Of a stretch of 64,000 nt of DNA, positions 14,982 to 56,874 are shown one piece after another. The translations under genes and the position numbers were made by a program. How positions within the stretch are numbered: position 1 is the first letter of the stretch; each line of letters begins with the position of its first letter. Below the pieces are notes generated by a model. The model was given only the letters and a program-made list of their open reading frames with translations. It ran no database searches and was not told where the DNA came from. Source of the stretch: Escherichia phage 310Ecol104PP; sequence record OR062946.1; one strand, written 5' to 3'.

Positions 14982-15455
14982 TTATTTGAATGATTTGACG
15001 TACTGAATAGAACCTTTACTATTCACAAAGGCAATTTTACCATTTTTGTTATACATGGTAGCAGTACGTTGATAACCATAAGTTTGTTTACCAGATTGAT
15101 AACCAACTAATGCAAAATTATCTTCACCCATTTTATTCTGCTTAGCGCGAATGCGTTCATGGCCATGTGCCATAAGAACCTTAGCATCACCCGTTGCAAT
15201 GGATCTACGAGTTTTTTCATCTTCAACTGTATTAACAAAGTCGTCAAATGAATCAAATTTAGCATGAGATTTATTATACAGTTTTCCATCTACTGCATAA
15301 TTATATCCTTGTACATCCATCTCAACTTCTGTACCGTCATCCAATACAGCAGTGATTTTCTGTCCTTTTTTAAATTTCAAAAGATCAGTAAAAGATTCAG
15401 CAATAATTTGAGAATTAATAGCTGCTTCAGTAATAAATTCTTGATATGTTTTCAT
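14982..15455 (-). CDS. internal protein candidate with capsid targeting sequence (157 aa)
   Basis: N-terminus MKTYQEFITEA matches the T4 internal-protein CTS (MKTYQEFIAEA-type); sits at the T4 ipII/ipIII position next to e. Confidence 0.65.
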   Translation of the reverse strand: MKTYQEFITEAAINSQIIAESFTDLLKFKKGQKITAVLDDGTEVEMDVQGYNYAVDGKLYNKSHAKFDSFDDFVNTVEDEKTRRSIATGDAKVLMAHGHERIRAKQNKMGEDNFALVGYQSGKQTYGYQRTATMYNKNGKIAFVNSKGSIQYVKSFK

Positions 15456-15471
15456 GTGTATCCTTTAATTT

Positions 15472-15789
15472 TTATTCTTTAGGGAAGTTTTTAGAATATG
15501 CATCATAAAGCTTATTTCCAATACGGCGGAAAACTCTAGCCGCAAAACGATTTTCTGGGTTTTTAATCATGATTTGCATCATATAAGTACCCGCGTCAGA
15601 AAGAGCTTCTTCATAGTACCCGTTAATTTCTTTAAGAGTCCTACGTTTACCACCAGGACCATCAACAGTGATTTTCCATTTACCTGTAGAAGTGCGACTT
15701 GGCGGCTCAACTTGTTCAATCCAGATATAACCACCTTCTACACGTTGTCCTGCAGCAGATTCTGCAATAAATTCTTTATACGTTTTCAT
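15472..15789 (-). CDS. internal protein candidate with capsid targeting sequence (105 aa)
   Basis: N-terminus MKTYKEFIAES; adjacent to the other CTS gene and to e. Confidence 0.65.
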   Translation of the reverse strand: MKTYKEFIAESAAGQRVEGGYIWIEQVEPPSRTSTGKWKITVDGPGGKRRTLKEINGYYEEALSDAGTYMMQIMIKNPENRFAARVFRRIGNKLYDAYSKNFPKE

Positions 15790-15860: not shown

Positions 15861-16391
<531 letters not shown>

Positions 16392-20593: not shown

Positions 20594-20627
20594 TGTATAG
20601 TACCACGGAAAGACAAGGATGTAAACT
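20594..20627 (-). promoter_or_regulatory. T4-type early promoter (minus strand)
   Basis: gtaaac at 20621-20626 and tatagtacc at 20596-20604. Confidence 0.5.
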
Positions 20628-20754
20628 GTTTTGTGAAAATTTTTTAAAAAGTTTTGGGGAATTCTAGGGCAGGGAGGGGAAATCAAAGGATAGGATAATA
20701 TATTATAAAGGGTAGAAACTAAATGATGTCTAGAGAGGCCTGGAAAGGCCTAGA

Positions 20755-20786
20755 TGCCAAAAAGCCCCAACCTTTTGGTTAGGGCT
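20755..20786 (-). terminator. rho-independent terminator (minus strand), copy 2 of a duplicated hairpin
   Basis: ccaaaaagccccaaccttttggttagggct; near-identical to the hairpin at 21314-21344. Confidence 0.5.
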
Positions 20787-20793
20787 AAGAATG

Positions 20794-21267
20794 TTATTTG
20801 ATTTGTTTAGCAGACCAAATGCGGTCTTTAATAATCTTTTGGATGTCTTCAACATACTCTAGGTCATGAGCATGTGGATTATCTTTGAAACTATAGGCAC
20901 GGGCTAACTTTTGGCCTTCGGTTTTGATTACTAAAAGCTCTTTAAGGATAGCTTCATATTTAGCGATAATTCCTTTAACAATATTTTTTTCTTGTGCAGC
21001 TTTATGATCTGCTTTAGGAGCAGGTTTACCCGAAGCCTTTGCAAAAGCAGCGCCAGTAGCAACTAAACTTTTCCAGGCCATACTAACTGCATTTCCCGTA
21101 AATCCTTCTGCTTTCATGTCGCGAGCAAACTGGAATCGTGATTCGTCAGAAGCATCTTTATAGGAATATTTACCCGCTGCAATGGCTGCTTTTGCGACAG
21201 CTTGAATTTCGGTGCTAGATGCTTCATTTAACACCGCTTCATTTAAAAATTGAGCATATGATTTCAT
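20794..21267 (-). CDS. internal-protein-like gene with CTS-like N-terminus (157 aa)
   Basis: N-terminus MKSYAQFLNEA resembles the CTS; Ala/Lys-rich; ATG at 21265-21267. Confidence 0.55.
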   Translation of the reverse strand: MKSYAQFLNEAVLNEASSTEIQAVAKAAIAAGKYSYKDASDESRFQFARDMKAEGFTGNAVSMAWKSLVATGAAFAKASGKPAPKADHKAAQEKNIVKGIIAKYEAILKELLVIKTEGQKLARAYSFKDNPHAHDLEYVEDIQKIIKDRIWSAKQIK

Positions 21268-21306
21268 CTTATTTCCTGTTTTAATTCGTGATTTAATATA
21301 CTACTA

Positions 21307-21314
21307 TATTTATA
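21307..21314 (-). promoter_or_regulatory. T4 late promoter (TATAAATA on minus strand) for the CTS-like gene
   Basis: Plus-strand tatttata about 40 nt upstream of the ATG. Confidence 0.5.
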
Positions 21315-21317
21315 CCA

Positions 21318-21344
21318 AAAAGCCCCAACCTTTCGGTCGGGGCT
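21318..21344 (-). terminator. rho-independent terminator (minus strand), copy 1 of a duplicated hairpin
   Basis: ccaaaaagccccaacctttcggtcggggct; minus-strand hairpin followed by TTTTT. Confidence 0.5.
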
Positions 21345-21394
21345 AAGCCTTGCGGCAACCTTGTCGGGGTTCCACCTGCTAAGGCAAGTGTTTG

Positions 21395-21556
21395 TACGAA
21401 ACGCCGGGATTCGAACCCGGTTATTAAGTAGTTGACGCTACTTAATATTTTTAAAAGGCCATATCTCGACCATATCCGAACGTTCCGTCAAAAACGCTAC
21501 TCGGCTTACGGCAAAGATATTTCCTCGAATCGATAATTCGGTGCGCCGTTTCTGCT
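21395..21556 (-). ncRNA. candidate tRNA-like stable RNA (possibly analogous to T4 rnaC/rnaD)
   Basis: Canonical T-arm CCGGGTTCGAATCCCGG and acceptor-like pairing, but no standard cloverleaf or anticodon arm; lies just 3' of tRNA-Arg. Confidence 0.3.
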
Positions 21557-21655: not shown

Positions 21656-22006
21656 TTAATATTCTTTTAAAGCATCAATCTGTTCACGGCGTAAACGCCA
21701 TAAATCAATTGCTTCATACGCAGATTCAGCATTTCGAATTAGCCGACATTTATATAAAGACTTATGATTTTGATATTGTGTAGATAACGGAATTTTATCT
21801 AAAAGGTCTTTACGTTCAAAATATTCGTAACCATCTAAACCAAATGAACGATTTTTAAGAAATTGCCAATGTCCAAATTCGTTTTCAACATAAACATAAT
21901 CTGCATGCTGATAAAGTAAATTAATTACACGTTCAGAAATAACAGTATCATTATGATTAAAATAGAATGTTAAATCATGAACTACTAAATAAACATTACC
22001 TTTCAT
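21656..22006 (-). CDS. hypothetical protein (about 116 aa) inside the tRNA region
   Basis: ATG at 22004-22006 (MKGNVYLVV) preceded by GAGGAAAA; the longer track ORF overlaps tRNA-Arg. Confidence 0.45.
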   Translation of the reverse strand: MKGNVYLVVHDLTFYFNHNDTVISERVINLLYQHADYVYVENEFGHWQFLKNRSFGLDGYEYFERKDLLDKIPLSTQYQNHKSLYKCRLIRNAESAYEAIDLWRLRREQIDALKEY

Positions 22007-22024
22007 ATTTTCCTCACTTATAAT

Positions 22025-22100
<76 letters not shown>

Positions 22101-22104
22101 GTAT

Positions 22105-22179
22105 TTGGCGGACGTGATAGGATTCGAACCTATAACCAATCGCTTAACAGGCGATCGCTCTGCCATTGAGCTACACATC
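22105..22179 (-). tRNA. tRNA-Asn (anticodon GTT)
   Basis: Cloverleaf GGATGTG-TA-GCTCAATGGCAGAGC; anticodon loop CTGTTAA; T-loop TTCGAAT; CCA encoded. Confidence 0.8.
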
Positions 22180-22183
22180 CAAA

Positions 22184-22270
22184 TTGGTGGGGAGTGATGG
22201 AGTCGAACCACCCGAGTCGCAATGACAATGGATTTACAGTCCACACCGCTACCTCTACGGGATAACTCCC
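22184..22270 (-). tRNA. tRNA-Tyr (anticodon GTA), long variable arm
   Basis: Acceptor GGGGAGT/ACTCCCC; anticodon loop CTGTAAA; T-arm GGTGG-TTCGACT-CCATC; D-stem imperfect; CCA encoded. Confidence 0.7.
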
Positions 22271-22279
22271 CAAATTAAT

Positions 22280-22354
22280 TTGGTGGCCCTGGGTGGAATT
22301 GAACCACCATCTGGCGATTATGAGTCGCTTGCTTGAACCTTCCAGCTACAGGGC
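22280..22354 (-). tRNA. tRNA with CAT anticodon (Ile2-type or elongator Met)
   Basis: Acceptor GGCCCTG/CAGGGCC; anticodon loop CTCATAA; at the position of T4 tRNA-Ile. Confidence 0.7.
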
Positions 22355-22355
22355 C

Positions 22356-22431
22356 TTGGTGCTGATTGACGGAATCGAACCGCCGACCTTCTCATTACAA
22401 GTGAGTTGCTCTACCTACTGAGCTAAATCAG
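22356..22431 (-). tRNA. tRNA-Thr (anticodon TGT)
   Basis: Acceptor GCTGATT/AATCAGC; D-arm AGCTCAGTAGGTAGAGC; anticodon loop CTTGTAA; CCA encoded. Confidence 0.8.
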
Positions 22432-22436
22432 CAAAA

Positions 22437-22526
22437 CTGGCGGAGGCGATAGGATTTGAACCTATGAGTCGCCGGAGCGACTGCCGGTTTTCAAGACCGG
22501 TGCATTAAACCACTCTGCCACGCCTC
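22437..22526 (-). tRNA. tRNA-Ser (anticodon TGA), long variable arm
   Basis: Acceptor GGAGGCG/CGCCTCC; anticodon stem CCGGT/ACCGG with loop CTTGAAA; CCA encoded. Confidence 0.8.
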
Positions 22527-22528
22527 CA

Positions 22529-22602
22529 GTCTCCATACAAGGATTTGAACCTTGGACCTCCTGATCCCAAATCAGGCGCTCTACCAAACTGAGCTACACG
22601 GA
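22529..22602 (-). tRNA. tRNA-Pro (anticodon TGG)
   Basis: Acceptor CTCCGTG/TATGGAG; anticodon loop TTTGGGA; T-loop TTCAAAT; CCA not encoded. Confidence 0.75.
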
Positions 22603-22612
22603 GTAAATTAAA

Positions 22613-22687
<75 letters not shown>

Positions 22688-22691
22688 AAAT

Positions 22692-22778
22692 TTGGTGCGA
22701 GAAGTGGGACTCGAACCCACAAGGAAATCATTCCGCAGCATTTTAAGTGCTGTGCCTTTACCAATTTGACCATTCTCG
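22692..22778 (-). tRNA. tRNA-Leu (anticodon TAA), long variable arm
   Basis: Acceptor GCGAGAA; anticodon stem CAGCA/TGCTG with loop CTTAAAA; T-loop TTCGAGT; CCA encoded. Confidence 0.8.
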
Positions 22779-22779
22779 C

Positions 22780-22852
22780 GCTGGGAATAAAGGACTCGAA
22801 CCTTTGCATCCTGGAATCAAAATCCAGTGCCTTACCAACTTGGCTAATTCCC
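22780..22852 (-). tRNA. tRNA-Gln (anticodon TTG)
   Basis: Acceptor TGGGAAT/ATTCCCA; anticodon stem CTGGA/TCCAG with loop TTTTGAT; CCA not encoded. Confidence 0.75.
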
Positions 22853-22950
22853 AATTATTAACAAAGGCTCTCTAACAAGAACCCTTGATGATAGAGGGTA
22901 TTAATCAGTGCGGTATGAGTTAATAATAACAAATAATTCTTAAAGCATAT

Positions 22951-23244
22951 TTACCATTTATGATGATACATACTTACGATGCATTCAAGACCCAAAGGAT
23001 TCTTGAAAATATCATATTCAAGAGGACCTTTTTCTGTTTCAATAAAGAAATCAAAATTTACTGTATTAAATTTACGGTCTTCCTTTACTAATTTAACTTG
23101 AGAAGATGAACGATCAATGTAAACCTTTTCAACTTCAAAACACGTTAAAATGCCATAATCATCGATCAAGGCTTTAGCTGCATCTTGATCATATTTATAT
23201 CCATTTTCAATGGATGATACTTTAGCATAAAGAATCATTATCAA
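22951..23244 (-). CDS. hypothetical protein (97 aa)
   Basis: ORF directly upstream of the tRNA cluster. Confidence 0.45.
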   Translation of the reverse strand: MIMILYAKVSSIENGYKYDQDAAKALIDDYGILTCFEVEKVYIDRSSSQVKLVKEDRKFNTVNFDFFIETEKGPLEYDIFKNPLGLECIVSMYHHKW

Positions 23245-23651
23245 CCTCTATCAACAATAGCATGAGTATGGGCATTTACGATTTGCCACCAGTCGAAACG
23301 ATTGGAACCATAATCTGGTTTATTTTCATTTTCTTTAATGATATCACGCAGCTTATCTTCTGTTTCAGCATACGCAATTAAATCATCATACCCACCACAA
23401 GGATAATAATTATCACCTGCGAATAAAAGAAAATTTACCTTAGATGGATTTACGTAATAATGGTCTTTAGGATATTTAGTTCCTCTCCAATCAGTTACTT
23501 CAACATAACGGTAAGAAAATCCATTTTTACTTTCAATCCAACTCCACGCTTCAAAAGGAGTATTAAAAACTTTATCAGGTATTAAATTACCTTCAAAATG
23601 AGAAGGATTTGCATAATCCCCGGCATAAACATAATATTCGTTAATACTCAT
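23241..23651 (-). CDS. hypothetical protein (136 aa), Tyr/Trp-rich
   Basis: ORF with overlapping stop/start to neighbours. Confidence 0.5.
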   Translation of the reverse strand: MSINEYYVYAGDYANPSHFEGNLIPDKVFNTPFEAWSWIESKNGFSYRYVEVTDWRGTKYPKDHYYVNPSKVNFLLFAGDNYYPCGGYDDLIAYAETEDKLRDIIKENENKPDYGSNRFDWWQIVNAHTHAIVDRG

Positions 23652-23898: not shown

Positions 23899-24123
23899 TT
23901 ATTCAACACCAGCGGCTTTCAAAAGTTTCTTAAGATTGGCAACACCTTGAGCAGAAAATGTGACCTTTCCACCTTTTTCACTGATAGAACCAACCAATTT
24001 AGCAAGTTTATCATTAGGAATTTTTTTAAAATCAGCCAATGTTCCATCAAAGGTTTTTGAAACAAAAGGCAGTTCATCTTCATGTCTTTTAGCTTCTACA
24101 ATAAATTTTTGATATGTTTTCAT
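23899..24123 (-). CDS. internal protein candidate with CTS (about 74 aa)
   Basis: ATG at 24121-24123 gives MKTYQKFIVEAK; Lys-rich small protein. Confidence 0.6.
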   Translation of the reverse strand: MKTYQKFIVEAKRHEDELPFVSKTFDGTLADFKKIPNDKLAKLVGSISEKGGKVTFSAQGVANLKKLLKAAGVE

Positions 24124-24156
24124 TTTAGTTTCCATTTAGATGTTTTGTTTTGATAG

Positions 24157-24191
24157 GGTAATAATATCACTACCCCATCTAAAAGTAAACA
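24157..24191 (-). promoter_or_regulatory. T4-type early promoter (minus strand)
   Basis: gtaaac at 24185-24190 and taataatatc near 24159. Confidence 0.5.
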
Positions 24192-24200
24192 GTTTATAAA

Positions 24201-24509
24201 CTATTTTATTCCGCGTGATGCAATTGTGTTCTGCCGTTTAACGCCAGTTTGTTTAAAGTCATGATTGTCGATTTGATCGGTACGAGCAACTCCGAATGAT
24301 GATTTGATTTTAGCCTTAGATCCTTTAGTTATAGAAATAAACATCTCGGAAGCCCCTTTCTTAAAGTCCGAGGCGATTACTTCAACGCCGTTCTTAGCAA
24401 GTGACTTCAGAATTGCCTCTGCATACTCATCGTCAAGACTCGTCTGAGTATTAATAACGAATGTCTTTGGCGCAGCCGCTTCATTGATAAATTCTTTAAA
24501 TGTTTTCAT
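24201..24509 (-). CDS. internal protein candidate with CTS (102 aa)
   Basis: N-terminus MKTFKEFINEA. Confidence 0.6.
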   Translation of the reverse strand: MKTFKEFINEAAAPKTFVINTQTSLDDEYAEAILKSLAKNGVEVIASDFKKGASEMFISITKGSKAKIKSSFGVARTDQIDNHDFKQTGVKRQNTIASRGIK

Positions 24510-24535
24510 TTTATTTTCCTAATTAATTTTGATGA

Positions 24536-24570
24536 GATAATAGTACCACAACCCTATTTAAAAGTAAACT
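24536..24570 (-). promoter_or_regulatory. T4-type early promoter (minus strand)
   Basis: gtaaac at 24564-24569 and taatagtacc near 24538. Confidence 0.5.
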
Positions 24571-24842
24571 CATTTTAAATAAATTGCGTATTTTTTATAA
24601 CCCGCTGACTCATGACGAAGACCCTTATCATTAGCAAAACGCTCAATGTTGTTAATTTGATTCTGGTCAAGTTCAGAGATGTCAAACACGAAAAAGTTAC
24701 GTTTGTTACCAACTGTTACATAGTCAGTTAAATCAATATCATATAGGTAATTGATGTCAGCAATCAAAGTCTTGACAGCTTTGCTAATTTTTACTTTTTC
24801 GTTAAAAGCAGCTTCAGCAATAAATTCTTGATACGTTTTCAT
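24570..24842 (-). CDS. internal protein candidate with CTS (90 aa)
   Basis: N-terminus MKTYQEFIAEA (canonical CTS); coordinates from ORF track. Confidence 0.6.
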   Translation of the reverse strand: MKTYQEFIAEAAFNEKVKISKAVKTLIADINYLYDIDLTDYVTVGNKRNFFVFDISELDQNQINNIERFANDKGLRHESAGYKKYAIYLK

Positions 24843-24867
24843 TTTATTCTCCTCAGTAGTTGATAGT

Positions 24868-24902
24868 GTAATAGTATCACTACCTCATCAGCATGTAAAC
24901 AA
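24868..24902 (-). promoter_or_regulatory. T4-type early promoter (minus strand)
   Basis: gtaaac at about 24896-24901 and taatagtatc near 24870. Confidence 0.5.
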
Positions 24903-24912
24903 CTTTGTGAAA

Positions 24913-53387: not shown

Positions 53388-53812
53388 TGCTTCTGATCCC
53401 TGAAACTCATGAATTAGTTCTCGAGAATGTCGAAGCACTTATTCCTGAAGCACAGGGTCGCTTTGACGAATTGTCTTCTGCTTTAAATAAAGACGATATA
53501 AATACAATTGTCGAGAATATGCTTGATGATGAAACTGATTTAGCGGTTGCATTAGCTTCTATTAATGAAAATATGCCGTTAAATGAATTCATCGTTAAAC
53601 ATGTTTCCGCCCGTGGTGAAATTACTCGCACTAAAGACCGCAAAACGCGTGAACGTAATGCATTTCAAACCACTGGGCTGTCTAAAGCAAAACGTAGACA
53701 AATTGCTCGTAAAGCTACCAAAACGAAGATTGCCAATCCAGCAGGTCAATCTCGTGCTCAGCGTAAGCGTAAAAAAGCTCTTAAACGCCGTAAAGCATTA
53801 GGATTAAGCTAA
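53387..53812 (+). CDS. 68: prohead core protein gp68
   Basis: 141 aa in T4 order. Confidence 0.85.
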
Positions 53813-54450
53813 TGAATGAACCCCAATTACTAATTGAAACTTGGGGTCAACCTGGCGAAATTATTGATGGCGTGCCAATGCTTGAATCTCACGATGGAAA
53901 AGACTTAGGTTTAAAACCGGGTTTATACATCGAAGGAATATTCATGCAAGCGGAAGTTGTCAATAGAAATAAACGTCTTTATCCAAAACGCATATTAGAA
54001 AAAGCGGTAAAAGACTATATTAATGAGCAAGTTTTAACTAAACAAGCTCTCGGAGAATTAAATCATCCTCCACGCGCTAATGTTGACCCAATGCAAGCCG
54101 CTATCATTATAGAAGATATGTGGTGGAAAGGAAATGACGTATACGGACGAGCTCGTGTTATTGAAGGTGACCATGGTCCTGGAGATAAATTAGCAGCTAA
54201 TATTCGTGCCGGATGGATTCCAGGAGTTTCTTCTCGTGGATTAGGTTCATTGACTGACACAAATAAAGGTTATCGTATCGTAAACGAAGGATTCAAATTA
54301 ACTGTAGGTGTTGATGCAGTATGGGGTCCAAGTGCTCCAGATGCATGGGTAACTCCTAAGGAAATTACCGAATCACAGACGGCGGAAGCCGATACAAGTG
54401 CCGATGACGCCTATATGGCTCTCGCAGAGGCCATGAAAAAAGCGTTATAA
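53812..54450 (+). CDS. 21: prohead core scaffold protein and protease gp21
   Basis: 212 aa in T4 order. Confidence 0.95.
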   Translation: MNEPQLLIETWGQPGEIIDGVPMLESHDGKDLGLKPGLYIEGIFMQAEVVNRNKRLYPKRILEKAVKDYINEQVLTKQALGELNHPPRANVDPMQAAIIIEDMWWKGNDVYGRARVIEGDHGPGDKLAANIRAGWIPGVSSRGLGSLTDTNKGYRIVNEGFKLTVGVDAVWGPSAPDAWVTPKEITESQTAEADTSADDAYMALAEAMKKAL

Positions 54451-54480: not shown

Positions 54481-55290
54481 ATGCTTAAAGAACAACTGAT
54501 TGCCGAAGCGCAGAAAATTGATGCTTCCGTTGCTCTTGATAGTATTTTCGAATCAGTTAATATTTCTCCGGAAGCAAAAGAAACTTTCGGCACTGTATTC
54601 GAAGCTACCGTCAAGCAGCACGCCGTTAAATTAGCTGAATCTCATATCGCTAAAATTGCTGAAAAAGCAGAAGAAGAAGTAGAAAAAAATAAAGAAGAAG
54701 CCGAAGAAAAAGCTGAGAAGAAAATCGCTGAGCAAGCTTCTAAATTCATTGACCATCTTGCGAAAGAATGGCTCGCTGAAAATAAATTAGCAGTTGATAA
54801 AGGCATCAAAGCCGAACTGTTTGAATCCATGCTTGGTGGATTAAAAGAGCTCTTTGTTGAACACAACGTTGTTGTTCCAGAAGAATCAGTTGATGTTGTG
54901 GCTGAAATGGAAGAAGAGCTGCAAGAACATAAAGAAGAATCAGCTCGTCTGTTCGAAGAACTCAATATGCGCGACGCATATATCAATTATGTGCAGCGTG
55001 AAGTGGCATTGAGCGAAAGTACTAAAGATCTGACTGAGTCTCAAAAAGAAAAAGTCTCTGCTCTGGTCGAAGGTATGGATTATTCAGATGAATTCTCAAA
55101 TAAATTGAGTGCCATCGTAGAAATGGTGAAGAAGTCTAATAAAGATGAAAGCACTATTACTGAGGGTATAAATACTCCTGATACTGAAGCAGCCGGACTG
55201 AATTTCGTCACTGAAGCTGTAGAAGATAAAGCTGCACCTGGTGCAGAAGATATTGTAAGTGTATATGCGAAAGTCGCATCTCGTTTCTAA
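54481..55290 (+). CDS. 22: prohead core scaffold protein gp22
   Basis: 269 aa acidic coiled-coil in T4 order. Confidence 0.95.
   Translation: MLKEQLIAEAQKIDASVALDSIFESVNISPEAKETFGTVFEATVKQHAVKLAESHIAKIAEKAEEEVEKNKEEAEEKAEKKIAEQASKFIDHLAKEWLAENKLAVDKGIKAELFESMLGGLKELFVEHNVVVPEESVDVVAEMEEELQEHKEESARLFEELNMRDAYINYVQREVALSESTKDLTESQKEKVSALVEGMDYSDEFSNKLSAIVEMVKKSNKDESTITEGINTPDTEAAGLNFVTEAVEDKAAPGAEDIVSVYAKVASRF
55167..55174 (+). promoter_or_regulatory. T4 late promoter (TATAAATA) for gene 23, inside the 3' end of gene 22
   Basis: Exact TATAAATA about 135 nt upstream of the gene 23 ATG. Confidence 0.55.
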
Positions 55291-55308: not shown

Positions 55309-56874
55309 ATGACTATCAAAACTAAAGCTGAACTTTTGAACAAATGGAAGCCATTACTGGAAGGTGAAGGTTTACCGGAAATTGCTAATAGCAAACAAGC
55401 GATTATCGCTAAAATCTTTGAAAACCAGGAAAAAGATTTCCAGACAGCTCCAGAGTACAAAGACGAAAAAATTGCTCAGGCATTTGGTTCTTTCTTAACA
55501 GAAGCTGAAATCGGCGGTGACCACGGTTACAATGCTACTAACATCGCCGCAGGTCAGACTTCTGGCGCAGTAACTCAGATTGGCCCAGCTGTTATGGGTA
55601 TGGTACGTCGTGCTATTCCTAACCTGATTGCTTTCGATATTTGCGGTGTTCAGCCGATGAACAGCCCGACTGGCCAGGTATTCGCACTGCGCGCAGTATA
55701 TGGTAAAGACCCAATCGCTTCCGGTGCTAAAGAAGCATTCCACCCAATGTATGGTCCAGATGCAATGTTCTCTGGTCAGGGTGCTGCTAAGAAATTCACA
55801 GCTCTGGCTGCTAGCACACAAACTACAGTAGGTGATATCTATACTCACTTCTTCCAGGACACTGGTACTGTGTATCTGCAGGCTTCTGCTCAAGTAACAA
55901 TTAGTTCTACTGCAGATGATGCAGCTAAATTAGATGCTGAAATTAAGAAACAAATGGAAGCTGGTGTACTGGTAGAAATCGCTGAAGGTATGGCTACTTC
56001 TGTCGCTGAACTTCAGGAAAGTTTCAACGGTTCTACCGATAACCCATGGAATGAAATGGGCTTCCGTATCGATAAACAAGTTATCGAAGCTAAATCTCGT
56101 CAGCTGAAAGCTGCTTACTCTATCGAATTAGCACAAGACCTCCGCGCTGTTCACGGTATGGATGCTGATGCTGAACTGTCTGGTATTCTGGCTACCGAAA
56201 TCATGCTGGAAATTAACCGTGAAGTTGTTGATTGGATTAACTACTCAGCTCAGGTTGGTAAATCTGGTATGACCCTGACTCCGGGTTCTAAAGCTGGTGT
56301 ATTTGACTTCCAGGATCCGATTGATATTCGTGGTGCTCGCTGGGCGGGTGAATCCTTTAAAGCTCTGTTGTTCCAGATTGACAAAGAAGCAGTTGAAATT
56401 GCTCGTCAGACTGGTCGTGGTGAAGGTAACTTCATTATCGCTTCCCGTAACGTAGTTAACGTTCTGGCTTCAGTTGATACCGGCATTTCTTATGCTGCAC
56501 AGGGTCTGGCTACCGGCTTTAACACTGATACTACCAAGTCAGTATTTGCTGGTGTTCTGGGTGGTAAATACCGTGTATATATCGACCAGTATGCTAAACA
56601 GGATTATTTCACTGTAGGTTATAAAGGTCCGAACGAAATGGATGCTGGTATTTACTATGCTCCATATGTAGCTCTGACTCCGCTGCGCGGTTCCGATCCG
56701 AAGAACTTCCAACCAGTAATGGGATTCAAAACTCGTTACGGTATCGGTATCAACCCATTTGCAGAATCCGCTGCTCAGGCTCCGGCTTCTCGCATTCAAA
56801 GCGGTATGCCTTCTATTCTGAATAGCCTTGGTAAAAACGCTTACTTCCGCCGTGTATATGTTAAAGGTATCTAA
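55309..56874 (+). CDS. 23: major capsid protein gp23
   Basis: 521 aa MTIKTKAELLNKWKPLLEGEGLPEIANSKQAIIAKIFENQEKDF; recognised as T4 gp23. Confidence 0.98.
   Translation: MTIKTKAELLNKWKPLLEGEGLPEIANSKQAIIAKIFENQEKDFQTAPEYKDEKIAQAFGSFLTEAEIGGDHGYNATNIAAGQTSGAVTQIGPAVMGMVRRAIPNLIAFDICGVQPMNSPTGQVFALRAVYGKDPIASGAKEAFHPMYGPDAMFSGQGAAKKFTALAASTQTTVGDIYTHFFQDTGTVYLQASAQVTISSTADDAAKLDAEIKKQMEAGVLVEIAEGMATSVAELQESFNGSTDNPWNEMGFRIDKQVIEAKSRQLKAAYSIELAQDLRAVHGMDADAELSGILATEIMLEINREVVDWINYSAQVGKSGMTLTPGSKAGVFDFQDPIDIRGARWAGESFKALLFQIDKEAVEIARQTGRGEGNFIIASRNVVNVLASVDTGISYAAQGLATGFNTDTTKSVFAGVLGGKYRVYIDQYAKQDYFTVGYKGPNEMDAGIYYAPYVALTPLRGSDPKNFQPVMGFKTRYGIGINPFAESAAQAPASRIQSGMPSILNSLGKNAYFRRVYVKGI

What the first reader, a model, noticed from the sequence alone, without database searches (positions are those of the whole stretch)
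20755..21344. CTS-like late gene bracketed by a duplicated terminator hairpin next to the stable-RNA region
The 157 aa gene (MKSYAQFLNEA) is flanked by two near-identical minus-strand terminator hairpins (ccaaaaagccccaacctttcggtcggggct and ccaaaaagccccaaccttttggttagggct) and has a TATAAATA late promoter just upstream. The duplicated hairpin looks like the footprint of cassette insertion by recombination between terminator sequences. A late-expressed, CTS-bearing gene here is not part of the T4 layout as I recall it.
Basis: partly seen in the sequence, partly recalled or inferred. Interest (0 to 1): 0.6.

Follow-up and report, generated by a model that had tools for sequence, protein, structure and literature searches.

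The report
Unnamed injected-protein gene cassette, T4-like phage
A T4-like phage carries, just after its tRNA/stable-RNA genes, a small late gene that looks like one of the "internal proteins" packed into the capsid and injected with the DNA. The gene sits between two copies of a terminator hairpin that let it be swapped in and out, and T2, T4 and T6 all lack it.

Summary
Gene 21267..20794 (minus strand, 157 aa, MKSYAQFLNE|A) lies between two near-identical terminator hairpins (21315-21344 and 20757-20786). A TATAAATA box sits 39 nt upstream of its ATG.

The window is a Tequatrovirus. The gene lies between stable RNA rnaC and e.8. In T2, T4 and T6 that interval is empty and holds a single hairpin copy.

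Related phages show four states whose junctions fall exactly in the hairpin: empty, the 157-aa gene alone, a second leader-bearing 187-aa gene alone, or both. In a spread sample the 157-aa state is the commonest and the T4-like empty state is a minority.

Homologues sit in the same place, with the same hairpin / late-box / leader layout, in Mosigvirus, Jiaodavirus and Tegunavirus. Loss in the classical T-evens is therefore at least as likely as insertion here.

The leader, the LxE cleavage motif, the basic mature protein and the window's own gp21/gp22 all fit the T-even internal proteins. T4 Ip1-3 are published inhibitors of GmrSD type IV restriction enzymes.

Every database calls the gene hypothetical. 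The RB32 record already notes the flanking 34-bp repeat. Packaging, late transcription and target are untested. I rate it a new member of a known kind, of moderate interest.

The parts
21315..21344 (-). Upstream hairpin. It is the intrinsic terminator ending the tRNA / rnaD / rnaC transcription unit and the right-hand copy of the duplicated element.
   Evidence: 10-bp stem, 7 GC pairs, GAAA loop, U run; listed by the terminator scan. Folds at -20.3 kcal/mol, z -3.3. Identical to the single copy in T2, T4 and T6.
21307..21314 (-). T4-type late promoter consensus box TATAAATA, 2 nt after the terminator's U run and 39 nt before the ATG.
   Evidence: Exact TATAAATA stands at the equivalent position in Jiaodavirus KP01 and Tegunavirus fHe-Yen9-01; Mosigvirus has AATAAATA. 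Function not tested.
21274..21277 (-). Shine-Dalgarno-like AGGA, 6 nt before the ATG.
   Evidence: Read directly from the sequence.
20794..21267 (-). 157-aa CDS, a putative unnamed internal (capsid-packaged, injected) protein. Parts: leader residues 1-10, helical N-domain about 18-75, PAPK-rich linker 76-87, C-terminal helical hairpin 88-154.
   Evidence: ORF. PHROG 2280, unknown function, E 4.9e-59. No Pfam match above cut-off. AF2 mean pLDDT 73.7. No informative fold or PDB match. tblastn finds it in 511 phage records.
21238..21267 (-). Codons for the 10-residue CTS-like leader MKSYAQFLNE, ending in a gp21-type LxE|A site.
   Evidence: Compare MKTYQEFIAE|A of T4 IPII and IPIII. The DNA around the start codon is 60-74% identical to that of the other leader-bearing genes in the window (family D1). 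The leader is kept in remote homologues.
21221..21246 (-). 15-bp tandem duplication (GCTTCATTTAA twice, spacing 15) that repeats LNEA(V/S) and creates a second LNE|A site after residue 15.
   Evidence: family D9; LxE sites at 10 and 15; absent in the Mosigvirus-type homologues P0004 and P0009.
20757..20786 (-). Downstream hairpin. It is the gene's own terminator and the left-hand, slightly diverged copy (3 substitutions, one G-U pair).
   Evidence: -17.5 kcal/mol, z -3.7. In G50 the equivalent copy has a stem identical to the rnaC terminator.
20597..20625 (-). Context: early-type promoter (TTTACA, 17 nt, TACTAT, with an extended TG) driving e.8 and the downstream genes. It marks the conserved left flank.
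   Evidence: It belongs to the same repeat family as the early-promoter elements at the ipI locus (family D4). Conserved in T4.
21395..21533 (-). Context: homologue of T4 rnaC (stable RNA species 1), the conserved right flank. Coordinates are transferred from the T4 annotation by a fixed offset and are approximate.
   Evidence: T4 annotation, sequences, alignment A2. No Rfam family matches it.

Best explanation
The interval is a self-contained late transcription unit: terminator, TATAAATA, ribosome-binding site, 157-aa ORF, terminator. It encodes a so far unnamed member of the T-even internal-protein (Ip) class.

Inferred mechanism:
1. gp55-dependent late transcription starts just after the rnaC terminator and stops at the gene's own hairpin.
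2. The 10-residue N-terminal capsid targeting sequence takes the protein into the scaffolding core of the prohead.
3. The prohead protease gp21 removes the leader after Glu10 (LNE|A), possibly also after Glu15.
4. The basic mature protein of about 16 kDa is packed with the DNA and injected at the next infection.
5. There it most likely neutralises a host defence. By analogy with Ip1, Ip2 and Ip3, the target would be a subtype of GmrSD-family type IV restriction enzyme aimed at glucosyl-hmC DNA.

At the DNA level the gene lies in a third ip locus, between rnaC and e.8. It is a module bounded by copies of the tRNA-operon terminator. Homologous recombination within the roughly 30-36-bp hairpin repeat adds, removes or reshuffles modules. 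This gives the four observed alleles: empty, 157-aa gene, 187-aa gene, or both.

Shown here: the anatomy, the allelic series with exact junctions, the conserved position and leader across genera, and the presence of gp21 and gp22 in the window.

Inferred only: late transcription, packaging, cleavage, injection, the anti-defence role, and the direction of each event.
For: Leader:
- MKSYAQFLNE|A against MKTYQEFIAE|A of T4 IPII and IPIII. Mature protein pI 9.4, 16.0 kDa.
- In the 64-kb window the leader occurs on 6 ORFs of 74-157 aa only. Three are at the ipI locus, two at the ipII/III locus, and one is this gene.
- The protein bodies are unrelated, as is known for Ips (PMC12373910).
- The leader persists in remote homologues: MKFKEFLAE, MLEYSEFLKE, MLKFNEFLAE, MINFSDFLNE, MKSFSSFLNE.

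Machinery: gp21 protease, gp22 scaffold and gp23 are in the window.

Late box: exact TATAAATA directly after a terminator in three genera, 7 of 8 bases in a fourth. This is the only leader-bearing gene in the window with its own box.

Cassette:
- T4, T2 and T6 have one hairpin and no gene.
- G50 has three hairpins and two leader-bearing genes.
- IME340 has only the 187-aa gene. Its junction equals the left context of G50's middle hairpin joined to the right context of G50's right hairpin.
- Junction alignment A2.
- Among 36 resolved rows of an evenly spaced sample of 729 records: 6 empty, 23 with the 157-aa gene only, 2 with the 187-aa gene only, 4 with both, 1 other.
- Mosigvirus has a different hairpin sequence, again duplicated on both sides of the gene and identical over 29 nt including a TT/TT mismatch. 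This is concerted evolution of the pair.

Function by analogy: Ip1-3 each block one GmrSD variant (PMC12373910). CTS-directed packaging is described in PMC3012670.
Against: - No transcript, virion-proteome or injection data for this protein or any homologue were found.
- The leader differs from the T4 consensus at 5 of 10 positions (T3S, Q5A, E6Q, I8L, A9N). The tolerance of the CTS to these exact changes is not known to me.
- TATAAATA occurs 20 times in the window against about 10 expected, so a single box is weak evidence.
- The classical ip genes carry early-type promoters with stem-loops, so this cassette is built differently.
- The protein is highly conserved within Tequatrovirus: 341 of 511 records are 95-99% identical. 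That is not the rapid diversification expected of an arms-race inhibitor.
- Several truncated or nonsense variants exist, so the gene is dispensable.
- There is no structural or sequence hint to any target.
Confidence: 0.72

Rival explanations
1. Recent insertion. A T4-like ancestor had an empty site, and a circular or linear cassette carrying one hairpin integrated into the rnaC terminator by homologous recombination, duplicating the hairpin.
For: The empty site has exactly one hairpin, identical to the right-hand copy. The filled site shows the duplication expected from integration of a one-hairpin circle. Such circles are documented for PeSL cassettes in RB49 and phi1 (PMC2839356). Gene order differs between G50 (157 then 187) and fHe-Yen9-01 (189 then 178), so modules do move.
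Against: Homologues lie at the same post-tRNA site in Mosigvirus, Jiaodavirus and Tegunavirus. The filled state is the majority in Tequatrovirus. Presence is therefore probably ancestral and the empty state derived. The process is reversible, so the two readings do not exclude each other at the population level.
Confidence: 0.25
2. The ORF is an ordinary non-packaged late (or read-through) accessory protein. Its N-terminus resembles the CTS only because the 5' end was acquired by recombination with an ip gene.
For: The DNA around the start codon is 60-74% identical to that of other ip genes (family D1), so the leader could be a recombination relic. There is no proteomic evidence. The locus is outside the two classical ip loci (PMC12373910 speaks of two Ip loci).
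Against: The leader is retained in homologues from other genera, where the surrounding DNA and the rest of the protein have diverged strongly. That argues for selection on the leader. An LxE|A/G/S site follows it in most homologues. The second cassette gene at the same locus, and both Tegunavirus genes, carry it too.
Confidence: 0.15
3. The two hairpins are independent terminators that resemble each other by convergence, and the presence/absence polymorphism arose by illegitimate recombination or homing-endonuclease (SegB) co-conversion rather than hairpin-hairpin exchange.
For: Any gene following the tRNA operon needs a terminator on each side. Jiaodavirus and Tegunavirus have non-identical flanking hairpins. 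segB lies about 0.4 kb away in T4 and T6, and SegB drives preferential inheritance of the tRNA region (cited in PMC4122927).
Against: The similarity covers 36 nt, including unpaired flanking bases and the loop. Mosigvirus has a different sequence that is again duplicated, including a shared internal mismatch. All four alleles have junctions exactly at the repeat. T2 lacks segB yet is empty, and RB32 has segB yet carries the gene.
Confidence: 0.05

Closest known systems
T-even internal proteins (T4 IPI/Ip1, IPII/Ip2, IPIII/Ip3; Ip4-Ip10 and further Ips of related phages; Repoila et al. 1994 as cited in PMC12373910, PMC3012670 and PMC4122927)
   Same: A roughly 10-residue N-terminal leader of the MKTYQEFIAE type ending in (L/I)xE|A. 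A small, basic, dispensable protein that is polymorphic between phages. The body is unrelated to other Ips. The gene is bounded by short conserved repeats. The phage encodes gp21 and gp22.
   Different: It lies in neither of the two recognised ip loci (57B-trna.4, and next to gene e) but between rnaC and e.8. It has its own TATAAATA box and terminators instead of the early-promoter/stem-loop element. It is absent from T2, T4 and T6. It carries no Ip name in any record checked. Packaging is not demonstrated.
PeSL (promoter-early stem-loop) cassettes and PeSL-mediated modular shuffling in T4-type phages (Arbiol et al. 2010, PMC2839356; Comeau et al. 2014, PMC4122927)
   Same: An ORF flanked on both sides by copies of a short regulatory repeat that contains a terminator stem-loop. 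The related genome has a single copy at the empty site. Recombination between copies explains gain, loss and reordering.
   Different: The repeat here is a terminator hairpin plus U run, without a sigma-70-type early promoter. The promoter inside the module is a late one. Mini-circles were not tested.
RB32ORF133c (GenBank NC_008515), annotated 'hypothetical protein; flanked by 34 bp imperfect direct repeat'
   Same: A 157-aa gene at the same locus with the same flanking repeat. Another phage record names RB32ORF133c for its 96.2%-identical homologue.
   Different: The record gives no function and does not label it an internal protein, although Ip4, Ip5, Ip7 and Ip9 are named in the same record.
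GmrSD (type IV restriction) inhibitors Ip1, Ip2, Ip3 (Silas et al. 2025, PMC12373910; Bair and Rifat papers cited there)
   Same: The proposed mode of action: a pre-made inhibitor co-injected with glucosyl-hmC DNA.
   Different: There is no sequence or fold similarity and no target is known. In that study ip4-10 gave no reproducible inhibition, and I could not establish whether this family was among them.

Membership tests
T-even internal proteins (Ip) | N-terminal capsid targeting sequence of about 10 residues (consensus MKTYQEFIAE) | tested here: met
   MKSYAQFLNE matches M1, K2, Y4, F7 and E10, with conservative S3 and L8. The motif is found only on ip-locus ORFs and this ORF in the window. 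It is conserved in remote homologues.
T-even internal proteins (Ip) | gp21 prohead-protease site (L/I)xE| at the end of the leader | tested here: met
   LNE|A at residue 10 and a duplicated LNE|A at residue 15. Cleavage itself is not testable here.
T-even internal proteins (Ip) | Physically present in the mature capsid and injected with the DNA | not testable with these tools
   No virion proteome or injection data were found for this family.
T-even internal proteins (Ip) | Phage encodes the scaffold core and the gp21 protease that the CTS pathway uses | tested here: met
   Peptidase_S77 at 53812-54450 (E 1.5e-111), T4_CASP at 54481-55290, Gp23 at 55309-56874.
T-even internal proteins (Ip) | Small, basic, dispensable, variable between related phages | tested here: met
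   Mature protein 16.0 kDa, pI 9.40. Presence/absence polymorphism. Nonsense and truncated variants.
T-even internal proteins (Ip) | Encoded in one of the two recognised ip loci (57B-trna.4, or next to gene e) | tested here: not met
   It lies between rnaC and e.8. This is a feature of location, not of the protein, so I treat it as a new locus and not as a failure of class membership.
PeSL cassettes | Repeat unit contains a strong sigma-70-type early promoter | tested here: not met
   No early-type promoter lies in or next to the hairpins. The ipI-locus genes of the same window do have one.
PeSL cassettes | Repeat unit contains a stem-loop terminator and flanks the ORF on both sides; the empty allele keeps one copy | tested here: met
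PeSL cassettes | Recombination between flanking repeats yields excised mini-circles | not testable with these tools
   Needs inverse PCR on infected cells (method in PMC2839356).
T4 late transcription units | TATAAATA box at about -10 upstream of the gene, on the coding strand | tested here: met
   21314..21307. Conserved in homologous loci. Promoter activity not testable here.
Rho-independent terminators | GC-rich stem-loop followed by a U run | tested here: met
   The upstream copy passes the scan. The downstream copy folds at -17.5 kcal/mol, but by my reading has only 4 T in the 8-nt tail window (5 U counting the closing pair), so it is marginal.
GmrSD / type IV restriction inhibitors | Demonstrated inhibition of a GmrSD-family nuclease | not testable with these tools
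   Analogy only (PMC12373910). No fold or sequence link.

The most novel reading that the evidence does not exclude
T4-like phages have a third internal-protein locus, immediately downstream of the tRNA/stable-RNA operon, that the literature I could read does not describe. It is ancestral to at least four Tevenvirinae genera and was missed because T2, T4 and T6 all carry the empty allele. It holds one or two late-only cassettes (the 157-aa and 187-aa families) encoding injected proteins. Their targets could be host defences for which no phage inhibitor is yet known, for example the GmrSD variants that Ip1-10 failed to block.
Probability: 0.45. Interest if true: 0.6.

Novelty: new member of a known kind. 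Interest (0 to 1): 0.45.

Why it matters
Internal proteins are the pre-made, co-injected anti-restriction proteins of T-even phages. In 2025 all three T4 Ips were shown to block distinct GmrSD type IV restriction enzymes, and that paper speaks of two Ip loci.

This finding adds a candidate third locus with two protein families that carry the packaging leader. Both are labelled 'hypothetical protein' in every record and cluster member I inspected. In my spread sample most Tequatrovirus genomes carry the 157-aa gene, and many of these are therapeutic or typing phages.

That gives concrete new candidates for anti-defence screens. It may also help explain host-range differences between T4 and its wild relatives.

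The clean four-allele series bounded by a 30-36-bp terminator hairpin is a compact natural example of repeat-mediated module exchange, and it uses a terminator instead of the published promoter/stem-loop element. If the protein turns out not to be packaged, what remains is an ordinary accessory-gene polymorphism.

Tried and rejected
- Function by homology: Pfam gave only sub-threshold noise. PHROGs gave an unknown-function family. A PDB profile search found nothing below E = 2.
- Structure: the AF2 model (pLDDT 73.7, all helical) searched with Foldseek against PDB and BFVD matched only its own family.
- Homologue searches: the word-index search and the exhaustive HMMER search found a small, phage-restricted family. 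Only 13 clusters were found among 1.84 billion representatives, and no member has a functional name.
- Rfam: no family matches the hairpins or rnaC/rnaD, only the tRNAs.
- Literature: no paper mentions RB32ORF133c or its neighbours. No virion proteomics was found for fHe-Yen9-01 or the fPS phages. Repoila 1994 is not held. The supplement of PMC4122927 is not held. The Silas 2025 supplements do not give the ip4-10 sequences. I therefore could not exclude that this family is one of the older numbered Ips, although the RB32 annotators, who named Ip4, 5, 7 and 9, did not recognise it.
- SegB co-conversion as the cause of the empty allele: rejected, because T2 is empty without segB and RB32 carries both segB and the gene.
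- Strict PeSL membership: rejected, because there is no early promoter.
- The first occupancy survey with a 1.65-kb T4 query was confounded by e.7 variation. I repeated it with a 431-bp query.

Full report
**1. What is in the sequence**

The window is a Tequatrovirus. Bases 20600-21450 are 99.9% identical to Escherichia phage FriedrichMiescher (Bas39), and 686 phage records match.

On the minus strand the order is:
- ten tRNA genes at 22853-22025;
- homologues of the T4 stable RNAs rnaD and rnaC, at about 21658-21395 by transfer from the T4 annotation;
- a hairpin at 21344-21315;
- TATAAATA at 21314-21307;
- an AGGA ribosome-binding site;
- a 157-aa ORF at 21267-20794;
- a second hairpin at 20786-20757;
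- an early-type promoter at 20625-20597 and the e.8 homologue.

The two hairpins are a 36-nt direct repeat, 89% identical. No other copy exists in the window and none appeared in 100 shuffles. Both fold as 10-bp GC-rich stems followed by a U run, at -20.3 and -17.5 kcal/mol, and no shuffle folds as well.

The TATAAATA octamer alone is weak evidence, with 20 copies in the window against 9.7 expected. Its placement is what matters (section 3).

**2. The locus compared with T4, T2, T6 and others**

In T4 the ipI gene lies between 57B and trna.4, upstream of the tRNA cluster. ipII and ipIII lie beside gene e. The interval between rnaC and e.8 in T4 has no gene and exactly one copy of the hairpin, identical to the window's right-hand copy. 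T2 and T6 are the same.

Phage G50 has two genes and three hairpins here. The extra gene encodes a 187-aa protein starting MKTYAEFLTE|A.

Phage IME340 has only the 187-aa gene. Its right junction is exactly the left context of G50's middle hairpin joined to the right context of G50's right hairpin.

Alignment of all junctions shows that homology to the empty site breaks precisely at the hairpin on each side.

I took an evenly spaced sample of the 729 records that match a 431-bp T4 probe across the site. Of 36 rows that could be resolved:
- 6 were empty;
- 23 had the 157-aa module only;
- 2 had the 187-aa module only;
- 4 had both;
- 1 was something else.

tblastn finds the 157-aa protein in 511 phage records and the 187-aa protein in 165. 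The classical T-evens therefore carry the minority allele.

**3. Conservation across genera**

Homologues of the 157-aa protein occupy the same post-tRNA position in three other genera.

| Genus (phage) | Upstream hairpin | Late box | Leader | Downstream |
|---|---|---|---|---|
| Mosigvirus (KAW3E185) | yes | AATAAATA | MKSYAEFLTE | hairpin |
| Jiaodavirus (Klebsiella KpV477 / KP01) | yes | TATAAATA | MKFKEFLAE|A | hairpin, then early promoter and an e.8-like gene |
| Tegunavirus (Yersinia fHe-Yen9-01) | yes | TATAAATA | two genes in tandem, MLQYNEFLKE and MLEYSEFLKE | hairpin |

The first Tegunavirus gene is a weak homologue of the G50 187-aa protein, at 24% identity over the full length with pairwise E = 2e-4.

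This distribution makes ancestral presence, with loss in some Tequatrovirus lineages, at least as likely as insertion.

In Mosigvirus the flanking hairpins have a different sequence from Tequatrovirus. They are nevertheless identical to each other over 29 nt, including an internal TT/TT mismatch. That is concerted evolution of the pair and argues for continuing exchange between the copies. In the Klebsiella and Yersinia phages the two hairpins differ from each other.

**4. What the protein is**

Its first ten residues, MKSYAQFLNE, followed by Ala, match the capsid targeting sequence of T4 IPII and IPIII (MKTYQEFIAE|A) at the key positions. They end in the (L/I)xE motif cut by the prohead protease (role of the CTS in PMC3012670).

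Across all six reading frames of the window, this leader occurs on six ORFs of 74-157 aa only. Three are at the ipI locus, two at the ipII/III locus, and one is this gene. The DNA around the start codons is homologous, at 60-74% identity over 53 nt. The protein bodies are unrelated, as published for Ip1-3 (PMC12373910).

The mature protein would be 16 kDa with pI 9.4, similar to the known Ips. gp21, gp22 and gp23 are encoded in the window.

The exhaustive profile search found only 13 clusters among 1.84 billion representatives. All full-length remote homologues begin with a leader of the same type, so the leader appears to be under selection.

The AF2 model has mean pLDDT 73.7. It shows a small helical N-domain, a Pro/Ala/Lys linker and a C-terminal helical hairpin. 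Neither fold nor sequence searches point to a function. The N-domain is the part shared with the Klebsiella and Yersinia homologues, while the C-terminal part differs.

**5. How it most likely works**

Shown here:
- the modular anatomy;
- the exact-junction allelic series;
- the conserved position and leader;
- the presence of the packaging and processing machinery.

Inferred:
- late transcription from the TATAAATA box;
- CTS-directed incorporation into the prohead core;
- removal of the leader by gp21;
- injection with the DNA;
- an anti-defence role.

The last step rests on analogy. Ip1, Ip2 and Ip3 each inhibit one GmrSD-family type IV restriction enzyme (PMC12373910).

Gain, loss and reordering of modules by homologous recombination within the hairpin repeat is the simplest reading of the junction data. 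It parallels the published PeSL mechanism (PMC2839356, PMC4122927).

**6. Comparison with what is known**

The class (internal proteins) and the process (repeat-mediated modular shuffling of ip and other accessory genes) are both published.

The differences here are:
- The locus is neither of the 'two Ip loci' named in the 2025 paper.
- The bounding repeat is a terminator hairpin without the early promoter that defines PeSLs. The T4 ip genes and the window's ipI-locus genes do have such early promoters, and lack their own TATAAATA.
- The module carries a dedicated late promoter.

The RB32 GenBank record already notes that its homologue is 'flanked by 34 bp imperfect direct repeat', yet calls it hypothetical while naming Ip4, Ip5, Ip7 and Ip9. 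Every member I inspected in the protein clusters is 'hypothetical'.

I could not read Repoila 1994. I therefore cannot exclude that the family corresponds to a numbered Ip.

**7. Verdict**

I classify it as a new member of a known kind: an unnamed Ip-like family in a third, polymorphic ip locus. Interest is moderate (0.45). It becomes useful if virion mass spectrometry confirms packaging, because it then supplies new candidates for injected anti-defence proteins that T2, T4 and T6 lack.

Noticed in passing
window 23899-24910 (minus strand): The classical ipI locus of this phage holds three leader-bearing genes: 24842-24570 (90 aa), 24509-24201 (102 aa) and 24123-23899 (74 aa). Each is preceded by a roughly 53-nt repeat containing an early-type promoter (GTTTAC..TA(C/T)TAT) overlapping a stem-loop. 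This is the arrangement attributed to Repoila 1994 and to PeSLs.
   Followed up: partly
window 14982-15789 (minus strand): Two more leader-bearing genes at the ipII/ipIII-equivalent locus: 15789-15472 (105 aa, MKTYKEFIAE|S) and 15455-14982 (157 aa, MKTYQEFITE|A). Two TATAAATA boxes lie further upstream at 16389 and 16376 on the minus strand, the arrangement seen upstream of gene e in T4.
   Followed up: partly
window 21221-21246: A 15-bp tandem duplication inside the leader region repeats LNEA(V/S), giving two adjacent gp21-type sites after E10 and E15. The Mosigvirus-type homologues lack it.
   Followed up: partly
L012 about 1729-1757 and 2273-2301 (Mosigvirus KAW3E185): The two hairpins flanking the homologue are identical to each other over 29 nt, including a TT/TT internal mismatch, but differ from the Tequatrovirus pair. 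The flanking terminators have evolved in concert.
   Followed up: partly
L005 2996-3534 (Klebsiella phage KpV477): The homologue is interrupted by a TAA stop where phage KP01 has a Lys codon, so only the N-terminal domain would be made. Several Tequatrovirus variants are also truncated after the N-domain: P0006 (111 aa), P0008 (93 aa), P0009 (108 aa), P0019 (97 aa).
   Followed up: no
protein P0014 (94 aa, 2.9-kb metagenomic contig); compare window 23241-23651 and 20794-20890: A chimeric protein. Its N-terminal part resembles the Trna.3-like ORF of the window (..NFLLFAGDNYYP.GGY..LRDIIKEN). This is fused to the last 32 residues or so of the 157-aa family (PHAHSLEYVEDIQKIIKDRIWSAKQIK). It suggests a deletion in some phage that removes the whole tRNA/stable-RNA cluster.
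   Followed up: no
window 22025-22853, compared with L003: The window has 10 tRNA genes and no tRNA-His, whereas FriedrichMiescher has 11 including His. The window is therefore not exactly that phage, despite 99.9% identity across the finding. ORF 21656-22054 as listed overlaps tRNA-Arg, and its real start is probably an internal ATG, because the PHROG match begins at residue 17.
   Followed up: no
L002 3258-3352 (G50) and L014: The 187-aa cassette gene has only a 7-of-8 late box (AATAAATA) 46 nt before its ATG, and its own, different terminator hairpin (GCCCTATCATTTAGATAGGG). How it is transcribed is unclear.
   Followed up: no
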